From NCBI RefSeq assembly GCF_009914755.1, contig NC_060926.1: a DNA stretch of 64,000 nt; one strand, 5' to 3'. Both the position numbers and the translations under genes were made by a program. This DNA is from the human T2T-CHM13v2.0 reference genome, Homo sapiens. Positions 44,550-48,979 of the stretch are shown here, piece after piece (within the stretch, counting starts at the first letter, position 1; each line of letters opens with the position of its first letter). The notes below the pieces were generated by a model. That model worked only from the letters and a program-made list of their open reading frames with translations, was not told where the DNA came from and did not search any database.

Positions 44550-45239
44550 CACAATACAACAAAATGCACAGACGTGTACAGTTTGATCATCTTTGACAAA
44601 TTCATATACCCATATACAGTTTGATCATCTTTAACAAATTCATATACCCATCAAACCCCTATCAAGACATGGAACATTGCTATCAACTCACAAAGTGTGC
44701 CCAATAAGCCACTGCACCCTGAAGCAACCAGCATCTGATTTTTACTACCATAGATTAATTTTGCAGGTTCTAAAACTTCATATAAATAGAAGCACACAAT
44801 ATGTACTGTTTTGTCCCTGGCTTCTTTAACTCAGCATGAAGATTTGAAGATTTGTCCATGTTGTTGCTTATATCAATGCTCTGTGTATTTATTTTACTGA
44901 GTTTTATTTCAATATATGAATATATCACAGTTTATTTATATATGTGTATTAATAGGCACCTGGTTGTTTATTTCCAGCTTGGGGCTATTAGGAATGAAAG
45001 TGCTATAAACTTTCTTGTACAAGGTTTTGTGATGATTTATTTTTTTCTTATTTTTTTGTTTTTACGGATATGTCATTTTTATTGGATAAATACCTAGAAG
45101 TGGAATTGCTAGGCATCATGATAGGTGCATGTTTAACGTTTTAAGAAATTAAGAAGCATTGTTTTCTAAGTTGTATAATTTTTTGCTCTCATCAGCATGC
45201 CTTTTCATTTTCATCTTCTCAACACTGTAATTTTAGGAT
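44550..45239 (-). mobile_element. L1ME 3' fragment with 38-bp tandem duplication (44577-44651)
   Basis: ttccagcttggggctattaggaatgaaagtgctataaac; tacagtttgatcatctttRacaaattcatatacccat twice. Confidence 0.7.
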
Positions 45240-45256
45240 CAGATTATATATTTTTA

Positions 45257-47104
45257 AATTTAATTTAATTTTAAGTTCCAGGGTACATATGCAGGACATG
45301 CAGGTTTGTTACATGGGGAAACATGTCCCATGGTGGTTTGCTGCACCTATCAATCCATCACATAGGTATTAAGCCCCATATGCATTAACTCTTTATCCTG
45401 ATAATATCCTTCCCCTAACACCCCCTTGACAGGCCCCAGTGTGTGTTATTCATCTCCTTGTGTTCATGTGTTCTCACTGTTCAGCTCCCACTTATAAGTG
45501 AGAAGATGTGGTGTTTGGTCTTCTGTTCCTGTGTTAGTTTGCTGAGGGATAATACCTTCAAGCTCCATCCATGTCCCTGCAACAGACATGATCTAGTTCC
45601 TTTTTATGGCTTCATAGTATTCCATAGTGTATATGTACCACATTTTCTTTATCCAGTCTATCATTGATGGGCATTTGGTTGATTCCCTGTGTTTGCTATT
45701 TTGAATAGTGCTGCAGTGAACACATGCGTGCAAGTGTCTTTATAATAGAATGATTTATATTCCTTTGGGTATATACTCTGTAATGGGATTGCTGGGTCAA
45801 ATGGTTTTTCTGGTTCTAGGTCTATGAGGAATCACCACTCTGTCTTCCATAATGGTTGAACTAATTTACATTCCCTCCAAAAGTAAAAGTGTTCCTATTT
45901 CTCCACAGCTTCACCAGGATCTGATGTTTTTGACTTTTTAATTATCACCATTCTGACTGACATGAAATGGTATCTAATTGTTGTTTTGTTTTACATTTCT
46001 CTAATGATCAATGATGCTGAGTTTTTTTTCGTATGTTTGCTGGATGCATGAATGTCTTCTTTTGAAAAGTGTCTATTCATGTCCTTTGTCCACTTTTTAA
46101 TGTTTTTTTCCTTGTAAATTTGTTTAAGTTCCTTGTAGATTCTGGATATTAGACATTTATCAGATGGTTAGATCACAAAAACTTTCTCCTATTCTGTAGG
46201 TTGTCTGTTCACTCTGATGATGGTTTCTTTTGCTGTGCAGAAACTCTTTTTTTTAATTAGATCCCATTTGTCAATTTTTGCTTTTGTTGCAATTGCTTCT
46301 GGTGTTTTCATCATAAAATCTTTGCCCATGCCTATATCCTGAAAGGTATTGCCTAGATTTTCTTCTAGGGTTTTTATAGTTTTGGGTTTTACATTTAAGT
46401 CTTTAATCCATCTTGAATTAATTTTTATGTGTGGTGTAAAGAAGGGGTCCAGTTTCAATTTTCTGTATATGGCTAGTCAGTTTTTCCACCATTTATTAAA
46501 TAGGGAATCCTTTCCCCATTGCTTGTTTTCATCAGGTTTGTTGAAGATCAGATGATCATAGACGTGCAGTCTTATTTCTGAGATCTCTATTCTGTTCCTT
46601 TGAATTATGTGTCAGTTTTGGTACCAGTACCATGCTGTTTGGTTACTGTAGCCTTGTAATATAGTTTGAAGTCAGGTAGCATAATGCCTCCAGCTTTGTT
46701 CTTTTTGCTTAGGATTATCTTGGATATACAGGCTCTTTTTTTGTTTCATATGAGTTTTAAAGTATTTTTTTTCTAATTCTGTGAAGAATGTCAATGGTAG
46801 TTTAATGGGAATAGCATTGAATCTATAAATTACTTTGGGCACTTTGGCCATTTTCAAAACATTGATTCTTCCTGTCTGAGCATGGAATGTTTTTCCATTT
46901 GTGTCCTCTTATTTCCTTGAGCAGTGGTTTGTAGTTCTCATTGAAGAGGTCCTTCACTTTCCTTGTTATCTGTATTCCTAGGTATTTTATTCTCTTTGTA
47001 GCAATTGTGAATGGGAGTTAATTCATGATTTGGCTCTCTGCTTGTCTATTGTTGGTGTAGAGGAAAGCTTATGATTTTTGCACATTGATTTTGTACCCTG
47101 AGAC
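45257..47104 (-). mobile_element. 5'-truncated L1PA (mid-age), ~1.85 kb, colinear
   Basis: 3' UTR plus ORF2 peptides [22 protein letters not shown] and [23 protein letters not shown]. Confidence 0.95.
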
Positions 47105-47178
47105 CACCCTCAACATGCCGGATCTTGACTATCTCAGAAGCTAAGCAGGATTGGGCCTGGTTAGTACTTGGATGGAAG
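47103..47178 (+). pseudogene. 5S rRNA fragment (about nt 13-88)
   Basis: accaccctcaacatgccggatc...gaagctaagcagga ttgggcctggttagtacttggatgg matches mammalian 5S rRNA. Confidence 0.92.
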
Positions 47179-47179
47179 C

Positions 47180-48000
47180 AGATATTTTTTACTTTTTTTC
47201 TTCAGTGATTTGAACATTTTGTATCCTATGTAGCAAATAATCTTCTAACATAAGGTCAAAACTATTTTTCCTGTGTTTTTGCCTAGAAGTTTTTTAATTT
47301 TAGCTTTTATGTTTAGGTTCTTCCTCATTGAATTGCTGTAGTACTCTTGCGAAAAGAGTACTACTATATATATGTGGGTTTATTTCTATTCCATTGACTG
47401 GTTAGTGCATCCTTTTACCAATATAACATCTTTCTGATTAGTATAACTTTATAATAAGCCTTAATGTCAGGTAGATTAATTCTCCTAAATTTGTTTTCTT
47501 TCTTATCAAGTTTGTTTGGGCTACTTTAGAATCAACTTGTCTATTTCTATAAAAAAGCCTATGCATTTTGGTTAGAATTGAGTTGAACCTGTACATCAAT
47601 TTGAGGAAAACTGACATCTAACAATATTGTCTTCCAATCTATGAACATGAGGTATTTGAGGTATTCTCCTATTCCTTTTAGCATAATTTTATAATTTCAC
47701 TGTAATGGTTTTATATATCTTTCATTAAATTGGTCCCTAATAATTTTTTGAGATGCTTTTATATACAATATGTTCTATTTTACTTATTCTTTTTTTTTCA
47801 ATTTTTTCATTCATATGGTTTGTTTTTCACTAAAGCCTTTAACATATTAATCACAATTATTTTAAAGTCTTTGATAATTTTGATATATGCATCATATCTT
47901 GATATCATTTGGTTTATCCCTTTTAGAGTTCTTTTTATCATTTTTTTAATTTAGTGTCTTATAATTTTGTTTTTAATGATGGACATCATGTCTTAGTTTC
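47180..48000 (-). mobile_element. L1ME fragments, continuation of 44550-45239
   Basis: Degraded antisense ORF2 (gtcttccaatctatgaacatg). Confidence 0.65.
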
Positions 48001-48349
48001 AGGCAGTTTCTACGGAATTCTGTTTTATAGATGAGATTTTCTCAGCATTTGTGAGTTTTTTCCCACAAGGCATTCACACACTCCCTTGAATCTGAGCAAA
48101 GTCATTTAGGAGAGATTTTCTGTGCTCTTTCAAGGGAAGGTGACTTTAAAACAAATTGATGCATAAGAAAACTTCATATTTATGGCATATAGAGTGAAAT
48201 TTCATTACATGTATACAATGTGTGATTATCAGTTCATGTAACTAGTATATCCATCACCTTTCCTGCATCAGATGACGTTTGCTCATGGCATAATGGTAGT
48301 GTATCCTTTCCTGGGAATGGTGTTTCTTTTTGTTTTAATTTGGAAATTT

Positions 48350-48651
48350 TTCTTTCTTTCCTTTCCTTTTTTGATGGAGTCTTTCTCTGTCGCCCAGGAT
48401 GGAGTGTGCAGTGGCATGATCTCGGCTTACTGCAACCTCTGCCTCCCAGGTTCAAGCAGTTCTCTATCTCAGCCTCCTGAGTAGCTGGGATTACAGGCAC
48501 CTGCCACCACGCCTGGCTAATTTTTGTATTTTTAGTAGAGATAGAGTTTCACCATCTTGGCCAGGCTGGTCCTGAACTCCTGACCTTGTGATCCACCCGC
48601 CTCAGCCTCCCAAAGTGCTGGGATTACAGGCATGAGCCACCAAGCCTGGCC
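48350..48651 (-). mobile_element. Alu (AluS)
   Basis: TSD taatttggaaattt. Confidence 0.95.
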
Positions 48652-48979
48652 TAATTTGGAAATTTCTATTGACCTCTCTTCAAGATAGACTCTTGTCTAT
48701 CTGGTCCTCAAATAATCCAACCAAAAGAATTTCTTATATTCATTATCATATATTATATTTCTAACATTTCCTTTTAGCTTGTTTTTATAGCATTCATTGC
48801 TCTTTTAGAATCCTCTGTCTGTTCACTCCTATTTTCTATTCCTATTTTTTACCGCAATGTGTGGTAAATGGTGTAATACATTTATCATAGCTATTTTGAT
48901 GTTCTGGTTAGATAATTCTAATATCTGGGATATCTTTTGGTCTCTTTATCTTGACTATTTTTCTTTTGCCTATTGGTTA

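What the first reader, a model, noticed from the sequence alone, without database searches (positions are those of the whole stretch)
45240..47192. Inverted 5S rRNA-L1 chimera
Seen: a minus-strand L1PA ends at ttgtaccctgagac and runs directly, with a shared ac, into a plus-strand 5S fragment lacking both ends. The flanks cagattatatattttta (45240) and cagatattttttac (47179) resemble a decayed TSD around both parts, and the same older L1ME continues on either side. Known: small-RNA/L1 chimeras such as U6-L1 normally have both parts in the same orientation. Inference: the opposite orientation fits twin priming in trans, with the second nick priming on a 5S RNA.
Basis: partly seen in the sequence, partly recalled or inferred. 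Interest (0 to 1): 0.7.

Follow-up and report, generated by a model that had tools for sequence, protein, structure and literature searches.

The report
Known inverted 5S rRNA–L1 chimera
A dead, roughly 40-million-year-old LINE-1 copy in a SPAG16 intron carries a backwards piece of 5S ribosomal RNA on its 5' end; this locus and its whole class were catalogued in a 2026 paper, so it is real but already known.

Summary
A minus-strand, 5'-truncated L1 3' part (about 45259-47104) runs with a shared AC into a plus-strand 5S rRNA fragment. That fragment is 47103-47178, equal to 5S nt 13-89, with 66 of 76 bases identical. Both sit inside one old L1M element.

It is not new. This locus is row 5 of the 5S sheet of Table S2 in Law & Burns, Cell Genomics 2026 (PMC13174262): L1PA10 (-) plus 5S:13-89 (+), 9-bp TSD, EN motif. 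By my count, 23 of that table's 27 5S/L1 chimeras are antisense. The paper proposes twin priming for them.

My own addition is that the TSD is weak. It is an AT-only word of 8 shared bases, expected by chance in 2-7% of controls. A profile of 19 L1M copies fits better if the target resumes at GATGGAAG (47171-47178). There the target and 5S nt 82-89 nearly coincide, which suggests annealing-primed cDNA synthesis with little or no duplication.

No function is indicated. Interest is low.

The parts
44966..45197 (.). Old L1M-type LINE, left part (antisense to L1M on the + strand), profile positions 20-207
   Evidence: nhmmer against a profile of 19 genomic L1M copies, E 2.3e-13
45198..45261 (.). 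Same L1M continuing after an internal gap of about 330 profile positions. This is the immediate left target flank (profile 538 to about 592).
   Evidence: 45196-45244 matches profile 538-580, E 0.008; this stretch fits the downstream L1M context better than the colinear one in 5 of 5 anchored copies. One search gives the alignments.
45246..45256 (-). It ends at a TTTTT/AA site that resembles an L1 endonuclease target.
   Evidence: Sequence. The string matches the 'TSD sequence (Downstream)' entry of Table S2, row 5. Chance level.
45256..45272 (-). A/T-rich stretch between the target and the L1 body, probably the remains of the L1 A-rich tail (10 T and 7 A on +). Part of it may instead be target.
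   Evidence: In one search the profile aligns 45256-45261 to L1M.
45259..47104 (-). 5'-truncated L1 3' part (end of ORF2 plus 3' UTR), annotated L1PA10 in the paper
   Evidence: homology to L1 copies stops at 47104. One search gives the RepeatMasker name L1PA10 and a length of 1844. One search reported 35 stop codons in one frame, so the copy is decayed.
47103..47104 (.). AC shared by the L1 truncation point and 5S nt 13-14 (2-nt junction microhomology)
47103..47178 (+). 5S rRNA fragment, nt 13-89 of 121, inverted relative to the L1
   Evidence: 66 of 76 identical plus a 1-nt deletion. (5S:13-89).
47171..47178 (.). GATGGAAG. It is both the end of the 5S piece (nt 82-89, one G>A) and a near match to the next conserved L1M target bases (profile TTgATgaag). 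This is the candidate annealing site of the second-strand primer.
   Evidence: 54.7 bits with it against 42.7 without; 0 of 114 5S 8-mers, 7 of 1000 window 8-mers and 5 of 1000 uniform random 8-mers score as high.
47182..47190 (-). TSD copy next to the 5S piece as published (ATATTTTTT on +).
   Evidence: Chance level.
47193..47318 (.). Old L1M continuing to the right, profile positions 612-738
   Evidence: nhmmer E 9.3e-14. Genomic copies.

Best explanation
This is one dead-on-arrival L1 (L1PA10) retrotransposition event into an older L1M element in a SPAG16 intron. According to the paper, L1PA10 arrived before the split of New and Old World monkeys.

Inferred steps:
1. ORF2p nicked the window's + strand at a T-run (TTTTT/AA at 45255, or TTTT/G at 45261).
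2. It copied L1 RNA from its poly(A) tail up to a point in ORF2 (47104).
3. The free 3' end of the other strand, on the far side of the break, primed a second reverse transcription on a 5S rRNA molecule. This started near nt 89 and ran towards the 5S 5' end as far as nt 13.
4. The two cDNA ends were joined at a 2-nt AC overlap.

This is twin priming with the second template supplied in trans, and it leaves the 5S piece inverted at the L1 5' end.

The anatomy, orientation, junctions and target continuity are shown. The order of events and the use of free 5S rRNA as template are inferred. Nothing suggests a present function.

The target-site detail is open. One reading is a short AT-only TSD, as published. 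The reading I favour at roughly 60:40 is little or no duplication, with the primer annealed through GATGAAG-like target bases to 5S nt 82-89.
For: - Anatomy. The L1 and the 5S abut without filler and share AC. The 5S end next to the target is its 3'-most retained nucleotide (89) and the end next to the L1 is its 5'-most (13). Twin priming predicts exactly this polarity (sequence).
- Neither part has a repeat of its own. The longest flank word is 5 for the L1 alone and 5 for the 5S alone, against 8 for both together. No A-run follows the 5S piece.
- The same L1M continues across the pair. Profile 538-580 lies on the left and 612-738 on the right. The 31 profile positions between them are matched by 17+14 leftover bases.
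- Similar decay. Non-CpG divergence is about 7.3% for the L1 copy's own branch and 4 of 63 (6.3%, CI 1.8-15.5%) for the 5S piece.
- Literature. Table S2 of PMC13174262 lists this locus: L1PA10 (-), 5S:13-89 (+), TSD 9 bp, EN motif yes. The methods say census loci were inspected by hand in 470-way alignments for contemporaneous arrival. The text says 5S pieces are typically antisense and truncated at about nt 46 and 90, and proposes twin priming.
- Annealing. The observed 8-mer at 47171-47178 fits the L1M profile better than all 114 8-mers of 5S. It also beats 993 of 1000 window-drawn and 995 of 1000 uniform random 8-mers.
Against: - No outgroup sequence was available to me. Co-arrival rests on the paper's manual inspection, which I did not see.
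- In the same table this locus has found_by_msa_prediction = 0, so the authors' automatic timing did not call it.
- The TSD is at chance level for AT-rich flanks.
- The microhomology reading was chosen after looking at the data. GATGGAAG would be present as 5S sequence in any case.
- The L1M profile hit on the immediate left flank is weak (E 0.008).
- The A-rich tail is short and unusually T-rich.
- Twin priming on a foreign RNA has not been demonstrated biochemically in anything I read.
Confidence: 0.75

Rival explanations
1. Template switch rather than a second primer. The L1 reverse transcriptase jumped from L1 RNA onto a transcript that carried a 5S pseudogene in antisense, for instance an intron. 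That would give the same inverted arrangement on a single cDNA.
For: Template switching is the accepted route for sense chimeras (paper passages). The genome holds many dispersed 5S fragments that could be transcribed antisense: one search lists 12 dispersed matches among the 40 scored of 507 candidates.
Against: The piece lies wholly within 5S (nt 13-89) and carries no foreign flank. Its non-CpG divergence is no higher than that of the L1, so there is no sign of an already decayed pseudogene template. In Table S2, 23 of 27 loci are antisense with recurrent end points near nt 40-50 and 89-98, which points to the abundant 5S rRNA itself. The end next to the target matches the target, which a template switch does not predict.
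Confidence: 0.08
2. Break repair with capture. A double-strand break in the L1M was patched by an L1 cDNA and a stray 5S cDNA or DNA fragment joined by end joining. This would be endonuclease-independent or a failed TPRT, without a true TSD.
For: The TSD is at chance level. Reconstructions without a TSD score better on the L1M profile. Both junctions show short microhomology.
Against: The L1 keeps its 3' end with an A/T-rich tail next to a TTTTT/AA site, as expected for endonuclease-dependent TPRT. There is no sizeable target loss at the site. The polarity of the 5S piece is the one expected from priming at the target end. This rival overlaps with the best explanation in its last step, the joining of two cDNAs.
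Confidence: 0.1
3. Two unrelated insertions that happen to touch. A 5S retropseudogene fragment and the L1PA10 arrived at different times.
For: The authors' automatic timing did not call the pair contemporaneous (found_by_msa_prediction = 0). I could not check alignments myself.
Against: There is a zero-base gap with a shared AC. Neither part has its own flanking repeat or, for the 5S, an A-tail. The rest of the 5S is not on the other side of the L1. The paper's manual inspection accepted the locus. Divergences are similar.
Confidence: 0.05

Closest known systems
5S rRNA/LINE-1 chimeric insertions, antisense class (Law & Burns, Cell Genomics 2026, PMC13174262, Table S2)
   Same: It is this very locus: hg38 chr2:213770459-213772302 (-) L1PA10 plus chr2:213772303-213772378 (+) 5S:13-89. 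The 5S is truncated, antisense and placed at the L1 5' end, with its target-side end at nt 89, in the paper's 'position 90' cluster.
   Different: The 5S piece starts at nt 13, whereas most rows start at nt 1-5. Under the published TSD this is one of 5 of 23 antisense rows whose TSD does not overlap the 5S piece (my arithmetic). I question its TSD.
Classical twin priming: L1 insertions with a 5' inversion (Ostertag & Kazazian 2001; seen only in the paper's reference list, content recalled)
   Same: An inverted segment sits at the 5' end of a 5'-truncated L1. Its polarity is that expected from a second primer at the upstream target end. The internal junction shows microhomology.
   Different: The inverted segment is not L1 but a different RNA, so the second template acted in trans.
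U6/L1 chimeras (Buzdin 2002; Garcia-Perez 2007; Moldovan 2019, PMC6789731, seen as a search listing only)
   Same: A small Pol III RNA is fused to the 5' end of a truncated L1 within one insertion.
   Different: U6 is full length and in sense. Those chimeras are explained by template switch or by RtcB ligation of the RNAs. Here the piece is truncated at both ends and antisense.
tRNA-half/L1 antisense chimeras (same 2026 paper)
   Same: A truncated small RNA, mostly antisense to the L1, with twin priming proposed.
   Different: A different RNA. The authors favour pre-cleaved tRNA halves as the source. For 5S no cleavage product is known to me.

Membership tests
5S/LINE-1 chimeric insertion (Law & Burns 2026 census) | 5S sequence annotated within 50 bp upstream of the 5' end of a LINE-1 | tested here: met
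   0-bp gap with a 2-nt overlap at 47103-47104
5S/LINE-1 chimeric insertion (Law & Burns 2026 census) | Contemporaneous arrival of both parts in multi-species alignments | not testable with these tools
   No primate genomes are held. The paper states manual inspection for census loci and lists the locus, but with found_by_msa_prediction = 0.
5S/LINE-1 chimeric insertion (Law & Burns 2026 census) | TSD of 7 bp or more enclosing both parts | tested here: inconclusive
   There is an 8-base shared word, ATATTTTTT-type and AT-only. Chance is 2.0-6.7%. TSD reconstructions score 39.1-42.4 bits against 51.1-54.7 for reconstructions without a TSD.
5S/LINE-1 chimeric insertion (Law & Burns 2026 census) | L1 endonuclease-type cleavage site at the L1 3' end | tested here: met
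   TTTTT/AA at 45251-45257 on the primed strand. The table says EN motif 'Yes'. T-runs are common here, with 329 TTTTA sites on the + strand of the window.
Twin-priming product | The 5' segment is inverted, with its template-3' end next to the upstream target and its template-5' end next to the internal junction | tested here: met
   5S nt 89 lies next to the target (47178) and nt 13 next to the L1 (47103)
Twin-priming product | Both cDNAs are copied from the same L1 RNA | tested here: not met
   The inverted segment is 5S rRNA, not L1. It is therefore a trans variant and not a classical member.
Twin-priming product | Complementarity between the second-strand target end and the template at the priming site | tested here: inconclusive
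   GATGGAAG fits the L1M profile and does so better than controls, but only under the reading without a TSD. Under the published TSD there is none.
Sense small-RNA/L1 chimera (U6/L1 type) | The small RNA is in the same orientation as the L1, usually full length | tested here: not met
   Opposite strands, and only nt 13-89 of 121 are present
Functional 5S rRNA gene (Rfam RF00001) | Full-length match above the gathering score | tested here: not met
   17.5 bits against 38. Both ends are missing. The real genes score 112-116 bits in the chr1 array.

The most novel reading that the evidence does not exclude
The insertion has no real target-site duplication. Instead, the far end of the break annealed through about 7 of 8 bases (target GATGAAG against 5S nt 82-89 GATGGGAG) to an intact 5S rRNA and primed reverse transcription there.

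If this is general, the recurrent 5S end points near nt 46 and 90 in such chimeras would mark where target ends can pair with exposed parts of the folded RNA. They would not mark sites of RNA cleavage, as the 2026 paper suggests.

In that paper's own table, the TSD overlaps the 5S piece by 1-13 bases in 18 of 23 antisense rows. This is my arithmetic on the coordinates and was not checked on sequence. The main text never mentions microhomology or annealing (0 occurrences of each).
Probability: 0.4. Interest if true: 0.3.

Novelty: already known. Interest (0 to 1): 0.12.

Why it matters
As a locus it does not matter much. It is a decayed, intronic retrotransposition relic with no sign of function, and it is already in a published catalogue together with the proposed mechanism.

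As a class, inverted 5S/L1 chimeras are natural records of what the second DNA end does during L1 integration, a step that is still poorly understood.

The small point added here is that the published TSD at this locus is not secure and that the target and the 5S end nearly coincide. This would help decide whether second-strand priming on foreign RNAs is guided by base pairing. It only becomes useful if tested across the whole catalogue and against outgroup empty sites.

Tried and rejected
1. Target-site deletion of about 300 bp. Seventeen of 29 L1M loci that hold both flanks have 181-754 extra bases between them, and I first read this as a deletion made by the insertion. I rejected that. The profile places the gap at 45197/45198, 58 bp left of the insertion. 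In addition, 45198-45255 fits the downstream L1M context better in 5 of 5 anchored copies.

2. L1 inserted into a pre-existing 5S pseudogene. There is no 5S sequence left of the L1 and no repeat around the L1 alone.

3. Rfam as the identifier of the 5S piece. It is too weak, so identity rests on alignment to the genome's own 5S array.

4. Pfam scan of the L1 reading frames. The call was not run because the translation holds 35 stops, and I did not pursue it.

5. MAFFT alignment of nine L1M copies with the flanks and permissive local alignments. Both over-extended through T-rich sequence and were ambiguous. The profile replaced them.

7. A genome-wide tally of my own. The genome search scores only 40 candidates per query, so I used the published census of 27 loci instead.

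Full report
WHAT IS THERE

Read on the + strand, the region consists of:
- an old L1M-type LINE up to about 45255-45261;
- an A/T-rich stretch, 45256-45272;
- the reverse complement of an L1 3' part up to 47104;
- a plus-strand piece of 5S rRNA, 47103-47178;
- the old L1M again from 47179.

THE L1 PART

A search of the window's own genome with 47040-47240 gave 39 non-self matches among the 40 scored of 2082 candidates. All ended at query 62-65, which is window 47101-47104.

Nine fetched copies align to about 45702-47104 at 85.1-88.0% identity. They stop at 47104 in 8 copies and at 47103 in 1 copy. The copies then continue with their own L1 sequence (TTTGCTGAAG...), while the window continues with 5S. 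The copy is decayed: one search reported 35 stops in one frame.

THE 5S PART

The genome's real 5S genes form an array on contig 1. Forty-seven matches there score 112-116 bits against Rfam RF00001.

Window 47103-47178 aligns to nt 13-89 of such a copy with 66 of 76 identities and one deleted base. Six mismatches lie in CpG dinucleotides, and five of these are the transitions expected from CpG decay.

Rfam by itself barely sees the fragment: 17.5 bits against a cut-off of 38, E 0.2 in 171 nt, and nothing at E<=1 in 6.5 kb. It is a fragment and not a gene. The dinucleotide AC at 47103-47104 belongs to both partners.

IS IT ONE EVENT?

- The longest word shared by the flanks is 8 for the pair taken together. 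It is 5 for the L1 alone and 5 for the 5S alone.
- No A-run follows the 5S piece, and no 5S sequence lies on the other side of the L1.
- Non-CpG divergence is about 7.3% for the L1 copy's own branch. This is a star-tree estimate from 9 copies and the 36 pairs among them. It is 4 of 63 (6.3%, CI 1.8-15.5%) for the 5S piece. The two are compatible, although the 5S sample is small.
- The polarity of the 5S piece (nt 89 at the target, nt 13 at the L1) is what a primer at the upstream target end would produce.

THE LITERATURE SETTLES NOVELTY

A full-text search for 'twin priming', '5S rRNA' and 'chimeric' found 4 papers, of which 2 were listed. One was Law & Burns, Cell Genomics 2026 (PMC13174262).

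What I read of that paper:
- the outline and abstract;
- passages found by term;
- part 1 of the Methods details and Discussion section 18;
- the supplement list, part 1 of mmc3, and all 27 rows of the 5S sheet of mmc2.

Row 5 of that sheet is this locus: chr2:213770459-213772302 (-) L1PA10; chr2:213772303-213772378 (+) 5S:13-89; TSD 9 bp; EN motif yes; found by proximity 1; found by MSA prediction 0.

Lengths, strands, 5S coordinates and both TSD strings match the window at an offset of 213,725,200. That offset is my inference and not a liftover.

The text says 5S segments in such chimeras are 'typically in antisense' and truncated at positions 46 and 90. It also says 20 of 27 have TSDs of 7-17 bp and 14 lie at the EN motif, and that antisense bias may indicate twin priming. 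I count 23 antisense and 4 sense rows.

Census loci were inspected by hand in 470-way alignments for contemporaneous arrival. I did not see that alignment. L1PA10 is placed before the split of New and Old World monkeys.

The inverted orientation is the norm for 5S.

THE TARGET SITE: MY OWN ADDITION

At first it looked as if about 300 bp of L1M were missing at the insertion. Seventeen of 29 L1M loci holding both flanks had 181-754 extra bases between them, and the four best anchored had 181, 290, 302 and 335.

I then built a profile from 19 L1M copies. These were L035 plus 18 of 29 further loci. Eleven loci were dropped because nested insertions made their extracted span much longer than the reference. 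The profile corrects the first impression:
- 44966-45197 matches positions 20-207 (E 2e-13);
- 45196-45244 matches 538-580 (E 0.008);
- 47193-47318 matches 612-738 (E 9e-14).

The gap of about 330 positions therefore lies at 45197/45198, 58 bp to the left of the insertion. The stretch 45198-45255 fits the downstream context better in 5 of 5 anchored copies (only 5 of 29 loci passed the anchor filter).

The TSD itself is weak. The shared word is 8 AT-only bases. A word at least as long turns up in 362 of 18214 (2.0%) random pairs of an EN-like site and a downstream site in this window, and in 334 of 5000 (6.7%) AT-matched pairs.

I scored six in-silico empty sites on the profile:

| Reconstruction | Bits |
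|---|---|
| Left flank to 45261, right side from 47171 (GATGGAAG...) | 54.7 |
| Left flank to 45255, right side from 47171 | 51.1 |
| Left flank to 45261, right side from 47179, without the 8-mer | 42.7 |
| TSD reading, right-hand TSD copy kept | 42.4 |
| Left flank to 45255, right side from 47179, without the 8-mer | 40.4 |
| TSD reading, left-hand TSD copy kept | 39.1 |

The TSD readings need a 22-position L1M deletion right beside the TSD.

As a control I replaced the 8-mer. None of the 114 8-mers of the 5S gene reaches 54.7. The best is 5S position 82 itself, at 52.4. Random 8-mers reach it in 7 of 1000 draws from the window and 5 of 1000 uniform draws.

So the 5S piece ends at the one place in 5S that best matches the next target bases. 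This favours annealing of the target end to 5S nt 82-89 with little or no duplication.

It is not proof. The test was devised after seeing the data, and those letters would be there as 5S sequence anyway.

From the coordinates in Table S2, the TSD overlaps the 5S piece by 1-13 bases in 18 of 23 antisense rows. This is my arithmetic and was not checked on sequence. It points the same way. The paper's main text does not mention microhomology or annealing.

VERDICT

The mechanism is plausibly twin priming in trans, which is inferred and not shown. The locus and its class are already published, and no function is indicated. The remaining open point is small: TSD against microhomology-primed blunt insertion. 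An outgroup empty site would decide it.

Noticed in passing
window 45197/45198: The old L1M element lacks about 330 profile positions here (profile 207 jumps to 538). This is 58 bp left of the L1PA10 insertion, so it is a separate internal deletion and not a target-site deletion. It misled my first reading.
   Followed up: yes
window about 45021-45067: A T-rich stretch of about 47 bases in the left L1M flank has no counterpart in the profile of 19 L1M copies. It appears as an insert state in the alignment. Its origin was not examined.
   Followed up: no
window 48371-48650 (- strand): Two Metazoa_SRP hits below threshold (50.9 and 35.7 bits) and mir-1268/mir-3135 hits below threshold. This is the usual signature of an Alu element. 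NCBI masks 48317-48655.
   Followed up: no
PMC13174262 Table S2, 5S sheet: By coordinates, the upstream TSD overlaps the annotated 5S piece by 1-13 bases in 18 of 23 antisense 5S/L1 chimeras. The other 5, including this locus, have gaps of 2-7 bases. This hints at base pairing between target end and 5S RNA, which the main text does not discuss.
   Followed up: partly
PMC13174262 Table S2, 5S sheet, row 5: For this locus the downstream TSD string has 11 positions, but its coordinates span 9 bases and the size is given as 9. The 11-position string matches window 45246-45256.
   Followed up: yes
window 47179-47192 versus the L1M profile: Under the TSD reading, the right flank lacks 22 L1M profile positions, the stretch holding TTgATgaag and the following bases, directly beside the TSD. 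Under the other reading nothing is missing.
   Followed up: yes
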